Positions 12,543 through 39,795 of a DNA stretch of 64,000 nucleotides are shown here, one piece after another. Numbering within the stretch: the first letter of the stretch is position 1; each line of letters starts with the position of its first letter. Origin of the DNA: a virus. The notes beneath the pieces are model-generated. The model had not been told where the DNA came from. It saw only the letters and a list, made by a program, of their open reading frames with translations, and made no database searches. Location of the stretch: positions 1 through 64,000 of the IMG/VR virus record IMGVR_UViG_3300025018_001404; one strand, 5' to 3'. The translations under genes and the position numbers were made by a program.

Positions 12543-12877
12543 TGTCTGTTGTATTCATATCTAACATTAATTTGTTCAGGCTTGAGGGTCTGCAGGAGGT
12601 CGATGACACCGGTGTTGCTGGGGCTTACCTTAATTCCGAGACGGTGGCGATAACTATCAAGGACGACGACGGTGTAGAAGTTGCCGGGGTAGTGTGGCCC
12701 CAGACTATGGCATACGTTACTTCGTCCAACGGTGATTATGCCTACACGGCTCCTGCGGCTGCCGCACTTGAGGTAGGGCGTACACATTACGCCTTCATTG
12801 ACATCGACGCCATCGACTTCCACTGCGAGTTTCCGTTCGCTCCAGTTACTCGTACCGGCGTGACGACCACCAGTTAA
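12539..12877 (+). CDS. Hypothetical virion-associated protein
   Basis: Overlap-coupled ORF; WP.TM.YV.SSNGDY pattern. Confidence 0.6.
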   Translation: MMSVVFISNINLFRLEGLQEVDDTGVAGAYLNSETVAITIKDDDGVEVAGVVWPQTMAYVTSSNGDYAYTAPAAAALEVGRTHYAFIDIDAIDFHCEFPFAPVTRTGVTTTS

Positions 12878-14448
12878 TGGCCCCTCCGGTAATCCTGGAT
12901 AGAAAGGTCGTCGCAGAGAACGACCAGTACCGCATGGAGTGGCAACTTCATGAGGACAAGACGAATGATCTAGGCTCCATCTGGAAGCCGTTCATGGTGG
13001 ACTCTGAGTCCGATGCTATCCTTCATACACCTGAGTGGATGCCCCTACCTGGCTCTCAGACCGTGTTCCTGCAATGCCCTGTGTTCGAGGCGCTGTTCGA
13101 GGGGAACAGGGGGCCGGGAAAAAGTATTACCCTCCTGATGGATTTTGCCAAGGAGGTTGGCAAGGGTTACGGCAAAGCCTGGCGCGGCGTCCTGTTCCGC
13201 CGATCCTTCGGTGACCTTGAAGATATCGTTCGCAAGATCGAAGACACCTTTCCCCGGATGTTTCCAGGCTTCAAGTTCTTGAAGTCGAAATCCGAGTACG
13301 CCGCTGTGTGGCCTGGCGGTGAAACCCTGTTGCTGCGCCATCTACGTGGGCCTGATGACTACGCCGAATTCCACGGTCACGAGATTCCCTGGATCGGCTG
13401 GGAAGAGTTGACGCAGTGGGAAAACGACATCGCTTACAAGATGATGATGTCGTGCTCGCGGCCCCCTGCGCCCGGTGTCCCGTGTCGTGTAAGAGGTACA
13501 ACTAATCCACACGGTGTAGGCCACAGTTGGGTCAAAAAACGTTTTAATCTCGGTGACCTGAGTACCCGTGGCCAGGTCATCAAGGTTCCAGGTGAGATGC
13601 CTCGAGTCGCAATTCGCGGCGATCTCCGAGAGAACTTCCTGCTGCTGCATTCGCAGCCGACGTACCCGATGCAGATCAAGCAGGCTGCCAGGAACAACGC
13701 ACAAGCGGCGGCGTGGCTCGAAGGCGACTGGAACGTCACATCTGGTGGCATGTTCGATGACATCTGGGACTCCAATATCCATGTGATCCCCGACATCCCA
13801 TACGAACAAATTCCTCACGGCTGGATACTAAGTCGTGGGTATGACCATGGCCGCGCACACCCGTTCGCCTATCAACTGTGGGCCGAGTCAAATGGGGAAC
13901 CGCTGCAACTGAAGGATGGTCGCATCGTTGGTAATGTTCGCGGCGATAAAATCCTTCTGATGGAGTGGTACGGCACCAACGGCAATGTCAATGAAGGCCT
14001 GAACATGTCAGCGCGTCGGATCGCCCAAGGTATCCTTGACCGCGAATCTGATTACGGCGTGACAGGTAGGGTGTATCCAGGCCCCGCTGATACGGAAATA
14101 TGGACCATGGATAACCGTGGTACCGGGCGATGCCCTGCTAATGACATGGAAGATGTCGGTGTATATTGGGAGCGTGCGGATAAAGCATCAGGTTCTCGGA
14201 AGGCGGGTTTTGAAGTAGTTCGAAACTACATAGAGGGCGCAATCCCTGACGAGACAGGGTTCAGGGAGACATCTGGCTTGTTCGTTTGCTCAGGGTGCCG
14301 GTACTGGTTAGAACTGTGCCCTACTGTTCCACGTGATAAAGATGATCCGGACGAAATTCCCAAGGGGTATGAAGATCATCAGTTGGATTGCACCCGCTAT
14401 GTCCTCACGTATGACTTGCCACGGATGTGGAGGAAGTCAGGATTTTAG
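12877..14448 (+). CDS. terL: Terminase large subunit
   Basis: Walker A GNRGPGKS, Walker B IGWEELTQ, TTNP coupling motif, nuclease residues GYDHG and EDHQLDCTRY. Confidence 0.95.
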   Translation: MAPPVILDRKVVAENDQYRMEWQLHEDKTNDLGSIWKPFMVDSESDAILHTPEWMPLPGSQTVFLQCPVFEALFEGNRGPGKSITLLMDFAKEVGKGYGKAWRGVLFRRSFGDLEDIVRKIEDTFPRMFPGFKFLKSKSEYAAVWPGGETLLLRHLRGPDDYAEFHGHEIPWIGWEELTQWENDIAYKMMMSCSRPPAPGVPCRVRGTTNPHGVGHSWVKKRFNLGDLSTRGQVIKVPGEMPRVAIRGDLRENFLLLHSQPTYPMQIKQAARNNAQAAAWLEGDWNVTSGGMFDDIWDSNIHVIPDIPYEQIPHGWILSRGYDHGRAHPFAYQLWAESNGEPLQLKDGRIVGNVRGDKILLMEWYGTNGNVNEGLNMSARRIAQGILDRESDYGVTGRVYPGPADTEIWTMDNRGTGRCPANDMEDVGVYWERADKASGSRKAGFEVVRNYIEGAIPDETGFRETSGLFVCSGCRYWLELCPTVPRDKDDPDEIPKGYEDHQLDCTRYVLTYDLPRMWRKSGF

Positions 14449-14513: not shown

Positions 14514-16016
14514 GTGGCCCATAAAGAAGATGATCCTAATGATCCTTCCGTCCGAAGCGAAGCATACAAGTTCATGCTGCCGCGTTGGATGCAGATCAAC
14601 GATTTGCTTGGCGGTACTCGCGCCATGCGTGAAGCCGGGTCAAAGCATCTTCCACGACACAGTCACGAGGCTGAGGACAGCTATCAGGAGCGCCTGAGTA
14701 CAGCGACCCTGTACAATATGACCAAGATCACCTTGGCGACATGGGTGGGTAAGCCGTTTTCCGATAAGGTCGGATTGAATCCCGATGTTCCTCCGCAGGT
14801 CAGGACCCTGTTGGACGACGTGGACCTGTGCGGCAACAATGTCGATGTGTTTGCTCGGGACTGGTTCTCGGACGCCATGGCTAAGGGTTTTTCACACGCC
14901 ATGGTCGACTTCCCGGCTATGGAAGAGGACAAGAAGACTCGAACCAAGGCCGACGATCTGGATGAGAATCGGCGTCCGTACTGGCTTCACGTGAAGCCCG
15001 AGAATCTTATCTCGGCATTTTCCGAGGTGGTCAACGGCAAAGAAACTCTGACTCAGGTTCGAATTCACCAGGTAATCACGGAGCGTATAGGGTTCATCGA
15101 ACGATTCACTCAGGAAATAAAGGTGATAGAGCCTGGTGTCTGGTATACCTACAGGTTGAAGAAAGACAAGAACCGCAAGGAAGTCTGGACGAAGGTTGCT
15201 GAGGGTACCTATGACCTAGACTTCATTCCTCTCGTTACCTTCTATGCCCATCGTACCGGCTTCATGCTGGCTGATCCACCGCTTGAGGACCTGGGATACC
15301 TGAACATCCGTCACTGGCAATCCACGGCTGATCAGGTAAACATCCTTACGGTTGCTCGCTTTCCGATGCTGGCGGTTGCCGGTGGTACCGATTTTGACGG
15401 CGAGACCATGGCTATCGGTCCCCGCCAACTGTTGGGTACAAAGAATGAGAACGGTAAATTCTACTATGTTGAGCATAGCGGAAAGGCCATTGCGTCAGGT
15501 TTGGCCGACCTGAAGGACATCGAGGAACTGATGGCAGCCTACGGTGCTGAGTTCCTGAAGAAGAAACCAACAAATCAGACAGCTACGGCGCGCACCCTGG
15601 ATTCGGCTGAGGCGATGTCACCGCTGCAGGATGCTGTTATCCGGTTCAACGACGCCATGAACATGATACTATACATCACGGCGCAGTGGATGGGCCTGGA
15701 GTCCGGGGGCACCGTTCTGATCCGCACGGATTGGGATGACGAGGACCTGGATGTTACTTTGCGCGCCTTGAACGACATGCGTGAGCGCGGTGATCTCAGT
15801 CTCGAAGATTTCTCCAACGAACTGATTCGCCGGAAGATTCTCCGCGAGGATTTCAGCATTGAAGAGAATGTATCCAGGATCAGCCGCGAGCTGGCTCTGC
15901 CTACTGAGGTGGCATTGAAACTCAAGCAGATGATCGCTGACACTCTCAAGGTGGCAGAGGAAACCAAGCATGTCGGTGATCCTACTGCTCCCGTAAAAGT
16001 ACCGGTGGCCGCGTAA
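14514..16016 (+). CDS. Portal protein (DUF4055-type)
   Basis: LLGGTRAMREAG..HLPR...E....YQERL, DVDLCGN, TATAR; follows TerL. Confidence 0.9.
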   Translation: MAHKEDDPNDPSVRSEAYKFMLPRWMQINDLLGGTRAMREAGSKHLPRHSHEAEDSYQERLSTATLYNMTKITLATWVGKPFSDKVGLNPDVPPQVRTLLDDVDLCGNNVDVFARDWFSDAMAKGFSHAMVDFPAMEEDKKTRTKADDLDENRRPYWLHVKPENLISAFSEVVNGKETLTQVRIHQVITERIGFIERFTQEIKVIEPGVWYTYRLKKDKNRKEVWTKVAEGTYDLDFIPLVTFYAHRTGFMLADPPLEDLGYLNIRHWQSTADQVNILTVARFPMLAVAGGTDFDGETMAIGPRQLLGTKNENGKFYYVEHSGKAIASGLADLKDIEELMAAYGAEFLKKKPTNQTATARTLDSAEAMSPLQDAVIRFNDAMNMILYITAQWMGLESGGTVLIRTDWDDEDLDVTLRALNDMRERGDLSLEDFSNELIRRKILREDFSIEENVSRISRELALPTEVALKLKQMIADTLKVAEETKHVGDPTAPVKVPVAA

Positions 16017-16018
16017 CA

Positions 16019-16609
16019 ATGGCTAAGGACGCGGACATTTTCAAGCGGCATCCTACCGGTATGGAACTTCTCCGTGCCGAGCAGAGACTGTCGGTAGATC
16101 GGAAAAAGAAGCTGATTCTGAAGATGGTTGCGCAGACAGGGTCGCCGATCATTGCGTGCCAGCGTCTCGGCATCAATACGCACAACTTCTACAACTACAA
16201 GAAAGACGACCCGGACTTCGCTCAAGCCGTGGCTGATGTCATGGAAGAAGTTGGAGACATGCTGGAAGCCGTCGCACTGGATCGCGCCGTTAACGGGGTA
16301 GCGGAGCCTGTATTCTATAAAGGTGAGCAGGTCAGCACGGTCACCAAGTACAGTGACAAACTTCTGGAGACGCTGTTGAAAGCCGCCAAACCTGAGAAGT
16401 ATCGTGAGAATGTCAATATCTCTGGCGGGGCGGGTACCAAGACGGGCGTTGTTCTCATCCCTGTAGTTGCGGTTTCTATGGAGGATTGGGAGAAATCAGC
16501 CCTAGATGTCCACAAGAAACAGCAGTTGATGAAATACGAAGAAGATAGTGGTATAGTAGACGCTGAATTTACGGAGGTGACTCCGTCAAAGACATTGGGA
16601 AGAGGTTGA
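16019..16609 (+). CDS. terS: Terminase small subunit
   Basis: HTH plus DPDFA, LE..A..RAVNGVAEPVFYKGE......KYSDKLL..LLKA..PEKY. Confidence 0.8.
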   Translation: MAKDADIFKRHPTGMELLRAEQRLSVDRKKKLILKMVAQTGSPIIACQRLGINTHNFYNYKKDDPDFAQAVADVMEEVGDMLEAVALDRAVNGVAEPVFYKGEQVSTVTKYSDKLLETLLKAAKPEKYRENVNISGGAGTKTGVVLIPVVAVSMEDWEKSALDVHKKQQLMKYEEDSGIVDAEFTEVTPSKTLGRG

Positions 16610-16894: not shown

Positions 16895-17689
16895 ATGATG
16901 AAGTTCGATTTTCCCGAAACCGTCGCGGACGGCTCGACTATTCCTGAAGAGTACAAAGGCCTCTACACTGAGGCTAATGGCTCGTTCACACTCTCCGAGA
17001 ATGTGCGCGGTCTGGCAAAGGCCTATGTCAGTACTGATACGGCCCTTGAGCGCGCTCGTGCCGACAAGACCACCGCCAGTAACGAGTCCGCCCAGCGCCG
17101 TCAGGCTCTGAAGGCCTTCGAGGATGCAGCGGCTGAACTCGGTATCGACCCCGGTGACGACCTTGTCACGGCCTACAAAACCCACTTCAGTGATCTCGCC
17201 GACCAGGTTAAAGGCGGTAAGGACATGAAGGTTAACCTTGACAAGATCAGGGAAGACCATCAGAAGGCGCTGGCCGAGGCCATCGGCAACAAGGACAAGG
17301 AAGTCAATATGATGCAGGGTACGCTTGAGCGCTACCTTGTAGACCGGGAAGCTGAGGAAGCGTTGAAGCAGGCGAAGGCCCGCAGCCTTGTGGTGATGCT
17401 CCCTCATGTGAAGCAGCACGTTAAGGTCGTCCGTGAAGGTGACGAGTACATCGCCCGCGTTGTTGACGCCCAGGGCGACTTCCGCTCGAACGGTAAGGGC
17501 GGCTTCATGGGGATCGGTGATCTCGTCACTGAACTGAAAGCCAACGCCGACTTCGCGCCGAACTTCGAAAGCGAGTCTCCCGGTGGCACCGGTACCAAAC
17601 CGGGAACCACGAACCGGACACCGCCGAAGCAGGGTGACGACCGCAACGCCGTAGACAAGATTGCCGCTGGTCTTGCGGGCCGCAAATAA
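16895..17689 (+). CDS. Capsid scaffolding protein
   Basis: Coiled-coil, V.VVD.QG..R.NGKG..M.I.DLV.ELK, C-terminal DKIAAGL; upstream of the MCP. Confidence 0.85.
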   Translation: MMKFDFPETVADGSTIPEEYKGLYTEANGSFTLSENVRGLAKAYVSTDTALERARADKTTASNESAQRRQALKAFEDAAAELGIDPGDDLVTAYKTHFSDLADQVKGGKDMKVNLDKIREDHQKALAEAIGNKDKEVNMMQGTLERYLVDREAEEALKQAKARSLVVMLPHVKQHVKVVREGDEYIARVVDAQGDFRSNGKGGFMGIGDLVTELKANADFAPNFESESPGGTGTKPGTTNRTPPKQGDDRNAVDKIAAGLAGRK

Positions 17690-17692
17690 CGG

Positions 17693-17721
17693 TTGACTCC
17701 GGGTGCAGGGTTAGCGATACT
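17693..17721 (+). promoter_or_regulatory. sigma70-like promoter upstream of the RNA cluster
   Basis: TTGACT-17bp-GATACT, with TGCA at the same offset as the other copies. Confidence 0.6.
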
Positions 17722-17724
17722 GCA

Positions 17725-17915
17725 CTCAGACCACAGCATCCGTGTAGTAGGCAGATCACCCCTAACGGGGACGCGCATAAGCCGAAACGGCAAAAGGTCT
17801 AGAGACGGAGGGGTCGGCGGGACTGCAAGTCGGCACCTTCACCTGAATACGAGAAGGGTACCAAGTGAAAAGGGATCACAGTGAGTGTGGTCGGCGCTTG
17901 GTACCCTTCTTCCTT
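17725..17915 (+). ncRNA. Candidate structured ncRNA or tRNA-operon leader
   Basis: Hairpins GCCG-AAA-CGGC and GAC-TGCAA-GTC; long stem GAAGGGTACCAAG/CTTGGTACCCTTC; GACCACA/TGTGGTC complementarity; no credible ORF. Confidence 0.4.
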
Positions 17916-17918
17916 CGT

Positions 17919-17995
17919 CAGCGAGTAGGGCAGTCTGGTAGCCCGTCAGGCTCATAATCTGAAGGTCGTTGGTTCAAATCCAACCTCGCTCACCA
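17919..17995 (+). tRNA. tRNA-Met(CAT), initiator-like
   Basis: Full cloverleaf with 1:72 mismatch, CTCATAA loop, GGTTCAAATCC T-arm and encoded CCA. Confidence 0.92.
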
Positions 17996-18004
17996 AGGAA
18001 GAAT

Positions 18005-18132
18005 GCCCACTTAGCCCAACGGTAGAGGCAGCGGTGTTAAGCTCCGTCAAGTGTCCGTTCGAATCGGACAGTGGTAGAGCAGTCGCCTTGTAAGCGTCAG
18101 GTCGCAGGTTCAAGTCCTTGCATTCGGCACCA
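18005..18132 (+). pseudogene. Fused tRNA-Leu(TAA)-like / tRNA-Thr(TGT) remnant
   Basis: The first tRNA lacks its 3' end. The second (CTTGTAA loop, ...ATTCGGCACCA) lacks its 5' end. They join at a shared CAGTGG. Confidence 0.7.
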
Positions 18133-18208
18133 GATCGATTAGGTTCTGAAAGCCTCTTTCGGAGAAATCAGAGGCTCACTGTGCATCAGCCTGGAAACGC
18201 CAGTATCC

Positions 18209-18664
18209 TTATCGGGTGCTGGCGTTTTCTCTTGCCCAGCGGACATCATCGATCCCAACCCTGGCCCTGTCACGCACTGCGTTAAAGGAAGGCCCGGAGT
18301 ACATCTGGAGCACCCTCCGGTAGACTTGGTCAGCCAGTTCTGGACAGTGCGCCACCATGGCGTCAGCCAACCTCAAGGTAAGGTCGGAGTGCCACATCCC
18401 GTACTGCTCCGCGACATTATGCGTTTGCGGACCCAGGTTTATCCGAGACCACCAGTAATTCAGCGGGTCTTCCAGCGAATCGATTCGGGTGCCTAGCGTA
18501 TGAAGCGTCGGGTCCTGACAGGTTGTTGACCTTGCCTGCCAGTGCTGGATGTCTGTCACTGTCTGCTCGTAAACGGCGTGGTCCACCTCTATAGCGGCAA
18601 ACCTTCCGTCCGTGTCCCTGGGCGTAAACAGCAGGCCTAGAATAAGACTGGCTGCTCCGATCAT
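18209..18664 (-). CDS. Moron-like hypothetical protein with a hydrophobic N-terminus
   Basis: Only counter-oriented gene in the virion block; RBS GAGG; promoter-like TTGTCA-17bp-TAAAGT upstream. Confidence 0.65.
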   Translation of the reverse strand: MIGAASLILGLLFTPRDTDGRFAAIEVDHAVYEQTVTDIQHWQARSTTCQDPTLHTLGTRIDSLEDPLNYWWSRINLGPQTHNVAEQYGMWHSDLTLRLADAMVAHCPELADQVYRRVLQMYSGPSFNAVRDRARVGIDDVRWARENASTR

Positions 18665-18780
18665 GGTAAACCTCGCTTTCCCTTAATCGTCATTTTGTAA
18701 ACTAACCTGGCCGAGTACTTTACACTAATCCCGTACCCTTGACAAAATCTTTATGAATTCACTACTATACGCAAATAACG

Positions 18781-18884
18781 GCGTAGTGATTCGCATAGGC
18801 GTGATGCCAAACGAATAATTACGAGGATGAAAGACCCTCTCTGGGTGATCCAGGCGGGCCGAAATGAAGGCGACGAGATGTCGC
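18781..18884 (+). promoter_or_regulatory. Four-hairpin G(T/A)GAT-loop element in the MCP leader
   Basis: GCGtA-GTGAT-TCGC, GGC-GTGAT-GCC, CTGG-GTGAT-CCAG and GCGAC-GAGAT-GTCGC. Confidence 0.7.
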
Positions 18885-18939
18885 GCCTCTTGCCGGTTCT
18901 TCTGTGTTTTGACCCAAATCCTTTTGAGAGGGTATTACA

Positions 18940-19860
18940 ATGGCTTCTGTTACTCTTGCTGAATCGGCCAAGTTGTCCCAGGATGACCTGGTTGCTGGCG
19001 TCATCGAGAACGTCATCACCGTCAATCCTTTTTTCGATATTCTGCCGTTCGATGGTATCGAGGGTAATGCCCTTGCTTACGACCGTGAGAACGTGCTGGG
19101 CGACGTGGACGTTGAAGGCGTAGGCGACACCATCGGTGCGACTGCTGCGGCGACCTTCACCCAGGTTACGTCGAGCCTGACCACGATCATCGGTACTGCC
19201 GAAGTGAACGGCCTGATCCAGGCGACTCGCTCGGACATCAACAACCAGACTGCGATCCAGGTTGCTTCGAAGGCGAAGTCGGCTGGCCGCAAGTACCAGG
19301 ACATGCTGATCAACGGTACGGGTGCTTCGAACCAGTTCAATGGCATGATCAATCTGTGCGTTGCCGGTCAGACTGTTGCGACCGCGACCAATGGTGAGAA
19401 TCTGTCGTTCGCTCGCATGGACGAAGTTTCCGATACGGTCACCGACAAGGATGGCCAGGTCGATTACTGGACCATGCACGCCCGTACCATCCGTTCGTTC
19501 AAGGCGCTGCTGCGCGCTCTGGGCGGTGCGTCGATTGGTGACGTGGTTCGCCTGCCTTCCGGTGTTGAGGTTCCGGCCTACTCTGGCGTCCCGATCTTCC
19601 GCAATGACTGGATTCCGATCACCCAGACACAGGCGGGTTCCGGCGCGGTCTGCACCACGATCTTCGCGGGTACTCTGGACGACGGTTCGCGCCAGCATGG
19701 TCTGGCTGGTCTGACCGCCGCGATGGACGCCGGTATCAGTGTGAACGATGTTGGTTGGGCCGAGAGCAAGGACGAGCACATCTACCATGTCAAGTGGTAC
19801 TGTGGCCTCGCGCTGTTCTCGGAAAAGGGCATCGCCTGTGCTCCGGGCATCCTGAACTAA
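18940..19860 (+). CDS. Major capsid protein
   Basis: MASVTLAESAKLSQDDLVAGVIE, LPF.GIEGNAL.Y.RE, VKWYCGLALFS; strong codon bias. Confidence 0.93.
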   Translation: MASVTLAESAKLSQDDLVAGVIENVITVNPFFDILPFDGIEGNALAYDRENVLGDVDVEGVGDTIGATAAATFTQVTSSLTTIIGTAEVNGLIQATRSDINNQTAIQVASKAKSAGRKYQDMLINGTGASNQFNGMINLCVAGQTVATATNGENLSFARMDEVSDTVTDKDGQVDYWTMHARTIRSFKALLRALGGASIGDVVRLPSGVEVPAYSGVPIFRNDWIPITQTQAGSGAVCTTIFAGTLDDGSRQHGLAGLTAAMDAGISVNDVGWAESKDEHIYHVKWYCGLALFSEKGIACAPGILN

Positions 19861-19871
19861 TCAGGTCTATG

Positions 19872-19905
19872 AGAGGGGGCTTTAACCGGCCTCCTCTTTC
19901 CTTTT
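19872..19905 (+). terminator. Terminator after the MCP
   Basis: AGAGGGGG...CCTCCTCT followed by a T-rich tail. Confidence 0.6.
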
Positions 19906-19919
19906 CCAGGAGAAACTAG

Positions 19920-20741
19920 ATGCCTGCTTATCGCGTAGAAATCCCCGAGTCGGCCCGCCATATGTCCATCGGTGGTGCGAACGGAGTTATTGTGTTCGCC
20001 GCTGACGCTACGGACGCCAAGGCCGCTGCCAAGGCCATACATCCCAACGATCCTGCGGCGATGTGGACCGCCGCGACCGCTACTGAAATTGTTGAAGATA
20101 CCGACTATGCGGACTTTGACCTGCATATTGTGATCCAGGATTCCGACCCTGTAGTGGACATCGCTGTGCAGAGTGACGGTGCTCTGGGTGTCAGTGCGGC
20201 TGTCGTCTCTGGTGGTGGTACCGGGTATACGGTAAATGATGTGGTCACAGTAACAGGTGGCACAGCTACTCGTGCCGCGACCCTGCGTATTCTGACCGTC
20301 AATACCGGTGTAGCCCTGACTGCGGAAGTAATTGATCCGGGTGTCTACTCCGTCATGCCCTCCAATCCTGTAGCGGTCACAGGCGACGGTAACGATGACG
20401 CTACGTTCACCCTGACTGCGGCTGCCAATAACTTCAGTTCACTCCTGGCGGCTGCTGTGGGTTCGCTGAACGCCGAGTCGATCATTGCCGGTGCTGCTCT
20501 GGACATGGGCGATGGTTCTGCTCCTAAGCTGACCATTGCTGACGGCGCTGGTGGTGACGATCTTGGTGACAAGGTTGTTACCGTCGAAATCCGGCGCGTA
20601 AACGGTGATGACAAGACGGCTATTCCTAGCCTGGTAGGCACTGTCACGGATGAGGGTGCGGCTACCGATGTTCTGTCCGTCACTTTCGATGCTACCCCGA
20701 TTGCTGCCAACCCTATTCGTGCCTACAAGATTGTCGAGTAA
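19920..20741 (+). CDS. Capsid decoration/structural protein
   Basis: Ala/Thr/Gly-rich, GGTGYTVND motif; directly after the MCP. Confidence 0.65.
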   Translation: MPAYRVEIPESARHMSIGGANGVIVFAADATDAKAAAKAIHPNDPAAMWTAATATEIVEDTDYADFDLHIVIQDSDPVVDIAVQSDGALGVSAAVVSGGGTGYTVNDVVTVTGGTATRAATLRILTVNTGVALTAEVIDPGVYSVMPSNPVAVTGDGNDDATFTLTAAANNFSSLLAAAVGSLNAESIIAGAALDMGDGSAPKLTIADGAGGDDLGDKVVTVEIRRVNGDDKTAIPSLVGTVTDEGAATDVLSVTFDATPIAANPIRAYKIVE

Positions 20742-37490: not shown

Positions 37491-38713
37491 CGACGTGGAA
37501 CTCATCTGACCGTTACGGCAATCCGTCGCGTATGACGTTCTCTAACGGAGACCCCACCGTTGCGGCCACGAGCGGCTACTGGACTGGAGGGCTATGGCAA
37601 TCGGTGCGAGGCACCACGTCCAAGAGTGGAGGCAAGGTGGTGTTCCAGACCAGCCCTGACGTACTGACTAACGACATGCGCACGGTTACAGGGCTGATGA
37701 CATCAGGTCCCAATATTCAGGACGACCCTGGTGTCTATCCGGGCCAAACGCCCACCGGGATAGGATACTATGGGAATGACGGCAGCGTGTATCTGAACGC
37801 CGTGAGCATCGCCACACTCCGGAGGCAGGGCAACTCACCAATCATGGTGGCCGCCGACTTCGACGCGGCTCTAGCCTGGTTCGCGGTCAGCGAGGCGCTT
37901 GGATCATGCTTCGAGCCGCAAGCAACTCCGATCATCATATCTAACAACCGAATGACCGTGAACATTGAGGGGTACGCGGTGGGCGAGTGGCGCGGCTCGC
38001 GCAGCATAACAGAGCGGTCATCTGGGTTACTTTACTGCGAGTGCACGCCGTCCGCGTCGTCTACTACGGTATTCGGGCTGTGCAACAGCGCGCAGAGCAT
38101 GACGGCCAACAACACGATTGGCCAGGGCGGCACCGAAGGTGTCAGCTACAAGTCAGACGGGACCACCGTTAATTGCGGCGGCGTTTCCATGTCGGCTTGG
38201 GGGACCAACACAATCGGCATGGCCGTCAACCTGACCACCGGCAACGTGTGGTTCTACGATCCGGCGACCGGATACTGGAACGGCAACGCCAGTTATGACC
38301 CTGCGGCAGGTACGGGCGGGATCAACTTGGCGACACAGACTGTAAGCGGCCCTTACTACGCCGCCGTCAAATGCTACAGCGCCGACGCGCAAACCATGAA
38401 TTTTGGTGCGTCGGCGTTCGTACACACGGTACCTTCAGGGTTCATGGCCTGGGACAACCCATCGGTGCCTACCCTGTGGAACGGTGACGTATTAGCGAAT
38501 CAGAATCCTGCCACGGGTGTCGGTGGTCTGGATATCTCTGGCTTCGGCGCGGCGGCGTTCCCAGCCTGGTCTACGTTCGACCTTAATACCAGCACCGCGA
38601 ACTTTAGTGGAGCACCGCTGTTCGGGGTAGATGTACCGTTCGGCTTCGGATCGTGGGACCCCCAACCGTCCAGGTGGGCGGGATACAGACCTGGTGGCAT
38701 GGTGATGACATAG
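37487..38713 (+). CDS. SPRY/concanavalin-like receptor-binding protein with two domains
   Basis: Two copies of SN...T...W.S.R.....SG...(F/Y), MAV.L..G..WF, NFG...F...VP.GF..WD. Confidence 0.7.
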   Translation: MTTWNSSDRYGNPSRMTFSNGDPTVAATSGYWTGGLWQSVRGTTSKSGGKVVFQTSPDVLTNDMRTVTGLMTSGPNIQDDPGVYPGQTPTGIGYYGNDGSVYLNAVSIATLRRQGNSPIMVAADFDAALAWFAVSEALGSCFEPQATPIIISNNRMTVNIEGYAVGEWRGSRSITERSSGLLYCECTPSASSTTVFGLCNSAQSMTANNTIGQGGTEGVSYKSDGTTVNCGGVSMSAWGTNTIGMAVNLTTGNVWFYDPATGYWNGNASYDPAAGTGGINLATQTVSGPYYAAVKCYSADAQTMNFGASAFVHTVPSGFMAWDNPSVPTLWNGDVLANQNPATGVGGLDISGFGAAAFPAWSTFDLNTSTANFSGAPLFGVDVPFGFGSWDPQPSRWAGYRPGGMVMT

Positions 38714-39302: not shown

Positions 39303-39795
39303 CCACCAATACGACGAGTCTATCCAGTCCTCCGTAAAGCGGTATTGGGCCGGTTATCCCGACTGGAAGTGGTGGAAGGCGCAACTTTACCAGGAGAGCC
39401 TGCTGGAGCCTACAGCCCGTTCCCACGTCGGTGCTGAGGGCATCGCTCAGTTCATGCCTGCCACCTGGCGTCAAGTATCGAAGCAGATGGGCTATCGGAG
39501 CATATCACCGCGTGATGCAAAGTATGCCATCGCAGCCGGTGCGTTCTACATGGCGCAATTGAAGCGTAGCTGGAAAGCAAAGCGACCCGAGATGGATCGC
39601 CATTTCCTCGCAGCGGCTTCGTACAATGCTGGGATGGGGAATATCCTGCACGCTCAGGACAGATGCGGCAATAAATCTCTCTACAAGGAAATTATTGCTT
39701 GCCTTCCGCAGGTAACTGGCAGACACTCTCGTGAAACGATTACATACGTCGAACGTATTCAAAAATGGTACCACATTCTGGAGACTGAACGATGA
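39211..39795 (+). CDS. Endolysin, SLT lytic transglycosylase with an N-terminal signal-like segment
   Basis: QES, A.S.VGA.GIAQFMPATW, ASYNAG.G, ETITYV.RI. Confidence 0.93.
   Translation: MSLLRTLWLSLFIMVSGSLLSPCFSAPLLNNHQYDESIQSSVKRYWAGYPDWKWWKAQLYQESLLEPTARSHVGAEGIAQFMPATWRQVSKQMGYRSISPRDAKYAIAAGAFYMAQLKRSWKAKRPEMDRHFLAAASYNAGMGNILHAQDRCGNKSLYKEIIACLPQVTGRHSRETITYVERIQKWYHILETER

What the first reader, a model, noticed from the sequence alone, without database searches (positions are those of the whole stretch)
18781..18884. Four hairpins with G(T/A)GAT pentaloops in the capsid leader
Seen: four stems of different sequence keep the same loop (18781-18794, 18798-18808, 18841-18853, 18870-18884). 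They sit between a TTGACA-N18-TACTAT promoter-like site and the MCP RBS. Different stems with a fixed loop suggest selection on structure. Inference: a multivalent protein-binding RNA element controlling capsid translation or antitermination, for example sensing free scaffold or capsid.
Basis: partly seen in the sequence, partly recalled or inferred. Interest (0 to 1): 0.7.

Follow-up and report, generated by a model that had tools for sequence, protein, structure and literature searches.

The report
Conserved GYGAY-loop hairpins in capsid leader
Small RNA hairpins that all end in the same five-base tip sit in the untranslated leader of this phage's major capsid gene and of dozens of related phages, marking an undescribed control signal for head-protein production whose reader is still unknown.

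Summary
The hairpins are in the sequence as described. Three are clean (18798-18808, 18840-18854, 18870-18884); 18781-18794 needs a bulged U. They lie between a sigma-70-like site and the capsid RBS. The window alone does not beat chance (P about 0.14). Relatives decide it: 68 of 78 distinct capsid-gene leaders carry at least one G-N-G-A-N pentaloop hairpin. 58% of GYGAY pentamers in leaders are flanked by 3 or more pairs, against 7% elsewhere in the same loci. Stems covary while the loop and a G-C second pair stay fixed. In Pseudomonas phage YuA both capsid-leader copies lie downstream of the published transcription start, inside a reported 124-nt 5'UTR RNA. Relatives carry the same hairpins before scaffold genes, and YuA before its small terminase gene. 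No Rfam family matches and no paper was found. Best reading: RNA operator hairpins read by an unidentified factor that tunes head-protein mRNA translation or stability. In this window an anti-SD segment abutting hairpin 3 pairs with the capsid RBS. Antitermination is not supported. This scan has noted the same motif before on other genomes.

The parts
18739..18768 (+). Sigma-70-like promoter site, TTGACA-N18-TACTAT. The predicted start is near 18775 and is not mapped.
   Evidence: 10 of 12 matches, the best in 17500-20500. Relatives have (GGGG)TTGACA at a similar distance.
18781..18794 (+). Hairpin 1: GCG[U]A-GUGAU-UCGC. Imperfect (bulged U), the weakest copy.
   Evidence: the isolated fold uses only the 3 G-C pairs with an 8-nt loop, -3.3 kcal/mol.
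18798..18808 (+). Hairpin 2: GGC-GUGAU-GCC. It contains the family 9-mer GCGTGATGC.
   Evidence: -4.0 kcal/mol. Loop P(unpaired) 0.85.
18823..18839 (+). Local GAGG/CCUC helix just 5' of the anti-SD segment. The GAGG word is conserved in 12 aligned leaders.
   Evidence: -4.3 kcal/mol.
18834..18841 (+). Anti-SD segment ACCCUCUC. It makes 8 Watson-Crick pairs with the RBS at 18926-18933 in the predicted MFE, and overlaps the 5' arm of hairpin 3 by 2 nt.
   Evidence: pair list; duplex z = -1.94 for the window.
18840..18854 (+). Hairpin 3: UCUGG-GUGAU-CCAGG. Its core GGGUGAUCC (18843-18851) is the most conserved unit of the family. CCC 18835-37 with GGG 18857-59 can extend it.
18868..18888 (+). Hairpin 4 (core 18870-18884, GCGAC-GAGAU-GUCGC). 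It is the equivalent of the variable helix that shows compensatory changes in relatives.
   Evidence: columns 74-77 with 85-88, pairs kept through changes on both sides; alternative register.
18894..18916 (+). U-rich 3' strand. In the MFE it pairs back onto 18842-18861 and so competes with hairpin 3.
   Evidence: pair list.
18926..18933 (+). RBS, GAGAGGGU, 7 nt before the ATG.
   Evidence: P(unpaired) 0.01 for 18775-18960; 0.18 for a -150..+5 construct.
18940..19860 (+). Major capsid protein gene (306 aa).
   Evidence: PF05065, 24.1 bits; about 72% nucleotide identity to YuA/Ab18-type capsid genes..
19871..19898 (+). Intrinsic-terminator-like hairpin directly after the capsid gene.
   Evidence: 11 pairs followed by a T-rich tail.

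Best explanation
The four hairpins are copies of a conserved cis-acting RNA unit. The unit is a short stem whose second pair is almost always G-C, capped by the pentaloop G-Y-G-A-Y. It sits in the 5' untranslated leader of the major capsid mRNA.

Shown: the unit is under selection as an RNA hairpin on the sense strand. It is a family trait of YuA-type head modules. In relatives it also precedes scaffold genes, and in YuA the small terminase gene.

Inferred: the fixed loop and clamp pair are read by one trans-acting factor, most likely a phage-encoded protein that binds as a dimer or multimer. Its occupancy would set translation and/or stability of head-protein messages.

Inferred for this window: the leader can fold in two ways. 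In the closed form, 18834-18841 pairs with the RBS and the helix runs on through the 5' arm and loop of hairpin 3. In the open form, hairpins 3 and 4 stand and the RBS is freer. A factor holding hairpin 3 would therefore favour capsid translation.
For: 1. 70 of 78 distinct leaders carry the 9-mer G[GC]GNGAN[GC]C within 230 nt of the capsid ATG. 68 of 78 carry at least one GNGAN hairpin of 3 or more pairs.
2. GNGAN caps 85 of 490 pentaloop hairpins (stem 4 or more) in leaders, against 200 of 6782 in the rest of the same loci.
3. 92 of 158 GYGAY pentamers in leaders are flanked by 3 or more pairs, against 134 of 1822 in controls.
4. An unselected set of 146 sites (94 distinct) gives 68.3% paired cells against 42.6 +/- 1.8 in shuffles. 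The covariation score is 0.583 against 0.195 (0 of 500 shuffles reach it) and 0.09-0.27 when the partner is slid.
5. The second pair is G-C in 92 of 114 hairpins. The loops are GUGAU 42, GCGAU 32, GUGAC 13.
6. Strand: internal G-U 12 against A-C 3. On the antisense strand GNGAN caps 4 of 462 hairpins.
7. In YuA the published start is 39396 and the published short RNA is 39396-39519 (passages). The hairpin loops start at 39434 and 39464.
8. In YuA 20001-58663, 4 of 17 GNGAY hairpins are intergenic. These are exactly the 4 with GUGAU loops: before TerS, before scaffold, and two before the MCP.
9. 36 of 52 distinct scaffold leaders have such a hairpin, mostly ending next to the RBS.
10. In the window the MFE is -60.1 kcal/mol with the RBS paired. 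Forcing hairpin 3 gives -52.1.
11. RBS-to-leader complementarity exceeds shuffles across the family: mean z -1.11, and z below -2 in 17 of 78.
12. The hairpins are thermodynamically marginal. 22 of 108 appear in the MFE, and forcing them costs a median 4.1 kcal/mol. Selection must therefore act through something the energy model lacks, such as a special loop fold or a bound factor.
Against: No reader has been identified. ANTAR, CsrA, Com and ProQ domains are absent from the 77.6-kb genome at E <= 1.

The RBS-switch idea is not general in silico. Forcing the hairpins raises RBS accessibility by more than 0.2 in only 6 of 68 leaders.

Capsid-leader hairpins mostly lie about 50-90 nt from the ATG, and 56-140 nt in the window. 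That is too far for simple steric block.

This phage's own scaffold, portal and terminase leaders lack the hairpin, so no regulon is visible in this genome.

The in-window statistics are not significant.

The loop of hairpin 4 is replaced by 4-nt G-N-R-A or other loops in the nearest relatives (by eye). That copy may be only a stable cap.

No expression data exist for this phage.
Confidence: 0.5

Rival explanations
1. Structure-only element. The pentaloop folds like a G-N-R-A tetraloop with one extra base, and serves as a stable cap or tertiary contact. It would organise leader folding and protect the message against RNase E or 3' exonucleases, with no dedicated reader.
For: G1 and A4 are fixed and position 2 is free, as in G-N-R-A loops (recalled rule). 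In the helix equivalent to hairpin 4, relatives interchange GNGAN pentaloops with GAAA, GCAA and GAGA tetraloops (by eye). The YuA short RNA ends 4 nt after the last base of the predicted closing helix, as a 3'-trimmed stable leader would.
Against: Position 3 is G and not A. Position 5 is a pyrimidine in 98 of 114 hairpins, and the second stem pair is G-C in 92 of 114. That is more specificity than a stable cap needs. Standard tetraloops would be the simpler solution. The loop complement is not enriched near the start (7 of 60, against 2-4 for control words).
Confidence: 0.2
2. Ribosome docking. GGUGAUCC is complementary to the 16S rRNA 3' tail just 5' of the anti-SD (GGAUCACC, recalled). The loops would act as standby or enhancer sites for 30S subunits on very highly expressed messages.
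For: GGGTGATCC is the commonest 9-mer. GUGAU is the commonest loop, 42 of 114. The motif marks the most abundant virion proteins.
Against: Positions 2 and 5 vary U to C (GCGAU 32, GUGAC 13). Both would face A in the rRNA, so these changes break pairs instead of preserving them. Closing pairs C-G (32) and A-U (28) remove the flanking complementarity. The pairing partner is recalled and was not tested.
Confidence: 0.08
3. Processive antitermination. This would be either boxB-like (loops read by an N-like arginine-rich protein) or put-like (RNA acting directly on RNA polymerase), allowing read-through of the terminator after the capsid gene.
For: The pentaloop hairpins lie just downstream of a promoter. 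A terminator-like hairpin follows the capsid gene at 19871-19898. Twin stem-loops resemble put in outline (passages of PMC9378689).
Against: No boxA-like word lies in the leader. No terminator lies within the leader. In relatives each of scaffold and capsid has its own promoter and terminator. Scaffold copies abut the RBS, which fits translation better. put has two long stems with a triplex, not stems of 3-8 pairs.
Confidence: 0.07
4. 5'UTR-derived small RNA. The leader is released and acts in trans on other messages.
For: The authors list the YuA leader as an abundant short RNA species and ncRNA candidate.
Against: No target complementarity was found for the loops. The same hairpins occur singly right next to scaffold RBSs, which argues for cis action. 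The 3' end in YuA lies at the start codon, with no terminator seen by eye.
Confidence: 0.07
5. DNA-level site or chance. The hairpins would be inverted repeats bound by a dimeric DNA-binding protein or sigma-54, or a coincidence in this window.
For: The window alone is compatible with chance. The YuA scaffold hairpin overlaps a fragment annotated as a -24/-12 promoter.
Against: The half-sites differ between copies while the asymmetric spacer is fixed. That is the reverse of a dimer operator. There are G-U pairs on the sense strand. The copies lie downstream of the mapped YuA start. Conservation holds across 78 leaders.
Confidence: 0.04

Closest known systems
YuA 5'UTR-derived ncRNA candidate 39396-39519, upstream of major head gene gp56 (Putzeys et al. 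2024, PMC10914365; passages read, supplements closed)
   Same: It holds the same position, between a promoter and a homologous capsid gene. It contains two GUGAU pentaloop hairpins (gga-GUGAU-ucc and ccgg-GUGAU-ccgg). It gives experimental evidence that such a leader is transcribed and accumulates.
   Different: The paper reports only the RNA species and its conservation within Yuavirus. In the passages I read it names no motif, hairpins or function. The window's leader has no BLAST-detectable similarity to it. The window has 3-4 copies and a longer leader of about 165 nt, by prediction.
boxB hairpins of lambdoid nut sites, read by N protein (recalled)
   Same: A short stem carrying a purine-rich pentaloop that begins with G and probably folds like G-N-R-A. 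A sequence-specific loop sits on variable stems. The site is in a phage leader RNA downstream of a promoter.
   Different: There is no boxA. The loop consensus is different, with a fixed G3 and a pyrimidine at position 5. It sits at late head genes, not early operons. Copies lie next to RBSs in scaffold leaders. No N-like protein is known here.
ANTAR dual-hairpin RNA targets (recalled)
   Same: Two small adjacent hairpins with conserved loop positions and free stems, which suggests a dimeric reader.
   Different: These are pentaloops, not hexaloops. No terminator overlaps the second hairpin. There is no ANTAR domain in the genome, and no Rfam hit.
Translational operators of phage proteins, such as the MS2/PP7 coat operator and T4 RegA or gp32 sites; P22 scaffold autoregulation (all recalled)
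   Same: The concept is the same: a structural or regulatory phage protein reads an mRNA hairpin to balance protein output. The scaffold-leader copies in relatives abut the RBS like an operator.
   Different: Capsid-leader copies lie 50-140 nt upstream of the start. There are several copies per leader. No binding protein is known. For P22 I know of no defined RNA site (recalled).
HK022 put RNA (PMC9378689, passages read)
   Same: Two stem-loops in a nascent leader directly downstream of a promoter.
   Different: put is about 70 nt, with long stems and a base triple, and binds RNA polymerase. Here the stems have 3-8 pairs and the conserved part is the loop.

Membership tests
GYGAY-hairpin leaders of YuA-type head genes (undescribed motif; YuA 5'UTR RNA as reference) | Lies upstream of a homologous major capsid gene, downstream of its promoter | tested here: met
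   MCP homology is shown. The start site itself is mapped only in YuA, not in this phage.
GYGAY-hairpin leaders of YuA-type head genes (undescribed motif; YuA 5'UTR RNA as reference) | At least one hairpin with loop G-Y-G-A-Y on a stem of 3 or more pairs, with a G-C second pair | tested here: met
   Hairpins 2 and 3 fit fully. Hairpin 4 has A at loop position 2. Hairpin 1 is bulged.
GYGAY-hairpin leaders of YuA-type head genes (undescribed motif; YuA 5'UTR RNA as reference) | Leader sequence similarity beyond the motif | tested here: not met
   blastn matches cover only the coding part. The intergenic query gives no relevant hit. The core aligns only with the nearest IMG/VR relatives.
Lambdoid nut site (boxA + boxB) | boxA word next to the hairpin | tested here: not met
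   None of the 27 window matches (up to 3 mismatches) to the recalled 12-mer lies in 18665-18939.
Lambdoid nut site (boxA + boxB) | G-N-R-A-like pentaloop fold read by an arginine-rich N protein | not testable with these tools
   The loop composition (G1, G3, A4) is compatible. The fold and any partner protein are unknown.
ANTAR target RNA | Two hexaloop hairpins, the second overlapping a terminator, and an ANTAR protein present | tested here: not met
   The loops are 5 nt. There is no + strand terminator in the leader. PF03861 is absent. The family definition is recalled.
CsrA/RsmA binding sites | GGA in the hairpin loop | tested here: not met
   The loops are GUGAU and GAGAU. There is no CsrA domain in the phage. 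The family definition is recalled.
ssRNA-phage-type coat operator | A single hairpin containing the RBS or start codon of the regulated gene | tested here: not met
   The nearest hairpin ends at 18884, 56 nt before the ATG.
Any Rfam 15 family | Covariance-model match | tested here: not met
   No match at E <= 10 lies in the hairpin-bearing part of the leader on the + strand of the window. None of the 5 matches at E <= 5 in 17 related loci covers the GYGAY hairpins of a capsid leader.
HK022 put RNA | About 70 nt, two long stem-loops, the first with a base triple | tested here: not met
   The stems have 3-5 pairs. Features of put were taken from passages of PMC9378689.

The most novel reading that the evidence does not exclude
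The GYGAY hairpins are the RNA side of an assembly-feedback circuit shared by a very wide range of tailed phages. A head-module protein (scaffold, capsid or a small unannotated partner) would bind as a multimer to the loops on terminase, scaffold and capsid messages. Translation of head proteins would then follow the pool of unassembled subunits. In this window the same factor would open an RBS-sequestering helix in the capsid leader.
Probability: 0.25. Interest if true: 0.85.

Novelty: new variant of a known kind. Interest (0 to 1): 0.6.

Why it matters
How tailed phages keep scaffold, capsid and packaging proteins in proportion is largely unknown outside a few model phages. Here a short, easily mutated RNA signal marks those messages in a culturable model (YuA on PAO1) and in many uncultured relatives. 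That makes the question directly testable with pull-downs, reporters and loop mutants. The motif would also add a phage cis-regulatory RNA class to the catalogues. It could serve as an annotation marker for head-gene starts and as a compact part for tuning expression.

Tried and rejected
1. Rfam. An evalue-mode scan of window 17500-20500 found nothing at the hairpins on the + strand. The only overlap is a weak CRISPR-DR30 hit on the minus strand at 18826-18855 (20.5 bits, E 1.5, gathering score 50), taken as chance. In 17 related loci the 5 weak hits do not cover the GYGAY hairpins of a capsid leader.

2. Leader similarity. blastn of 18600-18960 against phages gave only 27-28-nt chance-level hits.

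3. In-window enrichment. Not significant.

4. Motif before this phage's own scaffold, portal or TerL genes. None found.

5. General RBS switch. Modelling does not support it as a family rule (6 of 68). Anti-SD words are more frequent in the 5' arm than in the 3' arm (34 against 11 of 174). SD-like words, however, occur on both arms (37 and 34).

6. Loop kissing with the start region. Not enriched.

7. 16S pairing. Rejected as the general rule from the pattern of loop variation. The rRNA tail is recalled.

8. DNA operator or sigma-54 reading. Rejected (see rivals). The sigma-54 consensus is recalled.

9. Known RNA-binding domains in the genome (ANTAR, CsrA, Com, ProQ). None found. Only these four were tried.

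10. Expression. No RNA holder is listed. Contigs of four DNA runs are identical to the window where they cover it, so they give no natural variation to exploit.

11. Host assignment from genome contigs. The MAG labels span many phyla and include Yuavirus-like contigs, so they were not used.

12. RNAalifold on 12 leaders gave only a partial consensus. I did not build a covariance model.

13. Literature. The terms 'GUGAU' + 'hairpin' + 'phage' returned 2 unrelated papers. The YuA search and the scaffold-autoregulation search found no description of the motif. Supplementary tables S3-S7 of PMC10914365, which hold the TSS and TTS lists, are closed and may carry details on the YuA leader that I could not see.

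Full report
WHAT IS IN THE WINDOW

The window belongs to a 77.6-kb viral record. The head module reads as follows:
- TerL, 12877-14448.
- Portal, 14514-16016 (DUF4055).
- A 196-aa ORF, 16019-16609, that matches a PHROG named small terminase.
- A scaffold gene, 16895-17689 (phrog_206).
- tRNA-Met and tRNA-Leu, 17919-18078.
- A minus-strand ORF, 18209-18664, with no family match.
- The major capsid gene, 18940-19860.
- A terminator-like hairpin, 19871-19898.
The capsid gene is about 72% identical at the nucleotide level to those of Pseudomonas phages of the YuA and Ab18 types.

The 275-nt gap before the capsid gene holds the best sigma-70-like site of the region, TTGACA-N18-TACTAT at 18739-18768. 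Hairpins 2, 3 and 4 are clean. Hairpin 1 needs a bulged U. Hairpin 4 has a competing register.

IS IT MORE THAN CHANCE?

Not from this window alone. Three same-loop pentaloop hairpins appear in 406 of 3000 shuffles of the gap, and in 87 of 466 real 275-nt windows of the genome. The 9-mer consensus is not enriched in the window, 15 against 12.1 +/- 3.7. The other 26 of the 29 GNGAY hairpins on the + strand are scattered, mostly inside ORFs.

The case rests on relatives. Two scans of IMG/VR with the capsid protein and with an 11-sequence alignment gave 117 loci. Of these, 114 had a leader of at least 150 nt, which collapse to 78 distinct leaders including the window. The counts on these leaders are:
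- 70 of 78 hold the 9-mer G[GC]GNGAN[GC]C within 230 nt of the ATG.
- 68 of 78 hold at least one GNGAN hairpin with 3 or more pairs, and 42 hold two or more.
- GNGAN caps 85 of 490 pentaloop hairpins in leaders, against 200 of 6782 elsewhere in the same loci.
- 92 of 158 GYGAY pentamers in leaders are flanked by 3 or more pairs, against 134 of 1822 in the control. The control still contains the scaffold leaders, so it is conservative.
- All 146 GYGAY pentamers between -125 and -35 were taken regardless of pairing (94 distinct 19-mers). The six flanking pairs are standard in 68.3% of cells, against 42.6 +/- 1.8 in shuffles. The covariation score is 0.583 against 0.195 (0 of 500), and 0.09-0.27 when the partner is slid by 1-3 columns.
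- 18 of 20 loci from bacterial and MAG assemblies show the same hairpins.

ANATOMY OF THE UNIT

The loops are GUGAU 42, GCGAU 32, GUGAC 13 and others 27, out of 114. The closing pair is free: G-C 43, C-G 32, A-U 28. The second pair is G-C in 92 of 114. Stems run from 3 to 13 pairs and differ completely in sequence.

Among internal non-Watson-Crick pairs flanked by Watson-Crick pairs, G-U outnumbers A-C by 12 to 3. On the antisense strand GNGAN is rare, 4 of 462. The RNA of the gene's own strand is therefore the selected molecule.

Two copies per leader is the commonest state, in 38 of 78 leaders. Loop-to-loop spacing is 26-32 nt in 27 of 43 neighbouring pairs. The proximal copy usually sits 50-60 nt and the distal copy 80-90 nt before the ATG.

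THE WINDOW AND ITS NEAREST RELATIVES

An alignment of 12 leaders shows a shared core. It consists of GAGG, then G(A/G)CC, then a pyrimidine run, then GGG(U/A)GA(U/G)CC, which is hairpin 3. A GG(U/C)C word and a GAAA-rich spacer follow. Then comes a variable helix that keeps its pairs through changes on both sides (columns 74-77 with 85-88); this is hairpin 4. The core ends with GCCUC. In that last helix the loop is not conserved. By eye, relatives show GAAA, GCAA, GAGA and other loops there. Hairpins 1 and 2 have no positional counterpart in these relatives. Hairpin 3 is therefore the family's core site, and the other three are extra or lineage-specific copies.

EXPERIMENTAL ANCHOR

Putzeys et al. 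2024 (PMC10914365; I read passages by term search, not the supplements) mapped transcription starts in YuA. They list an ncRNA candidate at 39396-39519 in the 5'UTR of major head gene gp56, conserved in M6 and LKO4. In the YuA record the two hairpins gga-GUGAU-ucc and ccgg-GUGAU-ccgg have loops starting at 39434 and 39464, inside that RNA.

In YuA 20001-58663, 17 GNGAY hairpins exist. Four are intergenic, and these are exactly the four with GUGAU loops. They lie 42 nt before the small terminase gene, 28 nt before the scaffold gene, and 86 and 56 nt before the capsid gene. The first 20 kb of YuA were not scanned.

In the IMG/VR loci, 47 of the 95 control GYGAY hairpins with 4 or more pairs lie 801-1200 nt upstream of the capsid start. 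After locating scaffold starts by tblastn, 36 of 52 distinct scaffold leaders carry a GNGAN hairpin and 18 carry two. The proximal copy mostly has its loop 19-35 nt before the ATG, so it abuts the RBS. This window's own scaffold leader has none.

HOW IT MAY WORK

A fixed loop and clamp pair on free stems is the signature of recognition by a trans-acting factor. The twin layout suggests a dimer or a cooperative binder. The restriction to head and packaging messages suggests a factor tied to the head module.

The hairpins are weak by the nearest-neighbour model. Only 22 of 108 appear in the MFE of their leader, and forcing them costs a median 4.1 kcal/mol. Something outside the model, such as a special loop fold or a bound factor, must favour them.

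In this window the predicted ground state (-60.1 kcal/mol, 18775-18960) pairs 18834-18841 with the RBS 18926-18933 in eight Watson-Crick pairs. The helix continues through the 5' arm and loop of hairpin 3. RBS P(unpaired) is 0.01. Forcing hairpin 3 gives -52.1, and forcing hairpins 3 and 4 gives -49.5. A shorter construct gives an RBS accessibility of 0.18, rising to 0.39 when the hairpins are forced. A factor that holds hairpin 3 would thus open the capsid RBS.

Across the family, RBS-to-leader complementarity is stronger than in shuffles: mean z -1.11, and z below -2 in 17 of 78. The partner is often the 5' arm of a hairpin. But the switch does not generalise in modelling (6 of 68). I therefore hold it as an inference for this window and some relatives, not as the family mechanism. 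For scaffold leaders the geometry suggests plain occlusion of the RBS.

RIVALS

- A reader-free stable cap is possible, because G1 and A4 are compatible with a G-N-R-A-like fold and tetraloops interchange at hairpin 4's position. It does not explain the fixed G3, the pyrimidine at position 5 or the G-C second pair.
- Pairing of GGUGAUCC with the 16S 3' tail (recalled) is contradicted by the U-to-C variation at positions that would face A.
- Antitermination lacks a boxA and a leader terminator.
- A DNA operator is contradicted by variable half-sites around a fixed asymmetric spacer.
- No ANTAR, CsrA, Com or ProQ domain is encoded in the genome.

COMPARISON AND NOVELTY

No Rfam 15 family matches. 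My literature searches found no description of the motif. The only published trace I found is the YuA ncRNA candidate, for which the passages I read give no motif or function. The element works like a phage RNA operator (boxB, coat operators, ANTAR targets), but it fails each of their defining features that could be tested. This scan has already noted the same loop on other genomes, including cyanophage-like viruses and YuA relatives. Those notes agree with what I measured here. I checked their claims about YuA, scaffold and terminase leaders myself. I did not check the claims about cyanophages.

VERDICT

This is a real, conserved, sense-strand RNA hairpin motif. The window is a multi-copy member that carries it in the capsid leader only. 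Its function is most likely post-transcriptional control of head-protein output by an unidentified reader (confidence about 0.5). The direction and the sensing logic are unproven.

Noticed in passing
window 17919-17995 and 18004-18078: tRNA-Met (CAT) and tRNA-Leu (TAA) genes sit between the scaffold and capsid genes. Relatives have only a terminator and promoter there.
   Followed up: no
window 18209-18664 (minus strand): A 151-aa ORF on the opposite strand is inserted between scaffold and capsid. It has no Pfam or PHROG match. A promoter-like site at 18745-18717 faces away from the capsid promoter. By eye the N-terminus looks hydrophobic.
   Followed up: no
window 16019-16609: The ORF directly after the portal matches a PHROG annotated as small terminase (phrog_4044, 4.3e-36). 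That is an unusual position for such a gene.
   Followed up: no
window 18819-18830: UUACGAGGAUGA, in the 5' arm of the GAGG/CCUC helix, resembles the CsrA/RsmA high-affinity consensus as I recall it. It may be coincidence. The consensus comes from no call.
   Followed up: no
L119 201-243 (YuA 38500-38542): The YuA scaffold-leader hairpin tggcgg-GTGAT-ccgccg lies inside the fragment annotated as a -24/-12 promoter. By eye it has GG and GC at the sigma-54 spacing (consensus recalled). A TTGACC-N17-TACAAT site lies just upstream, followed by a second hairpin, gtgc-GTGAG-gcac. The sigma-54 call may partly reflect the RNA hairpin.
   Followed up: partly
L027, L029, L030, L031, about 3640-3830 nt after the capsid start: Another twin pair of GYGAC hairpins (ggcc-GTGAC-ggcc, and 47 nt later gggcaa-GCGAC-ttgctc) recurs downstream of the head genes in one clade. 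It may lie before a tail gene.
   Followed up: no
L122, L126, L140 (genome contigs): Contigs binned as Microbacteriaceae and Anaerolinea MAGs carry leaders with the same hairpins as YuA. They are probably Pseudomonas-phage contigs placed in the wrong bins.
   Followed up: no
L066, L099, L101, L104, about 912-960 nt after the capsid start: The terminator hairpins directly after the capsid gene in some relatives are themselves capped by GCGAC or GUGAU loops.
   Followed up: no
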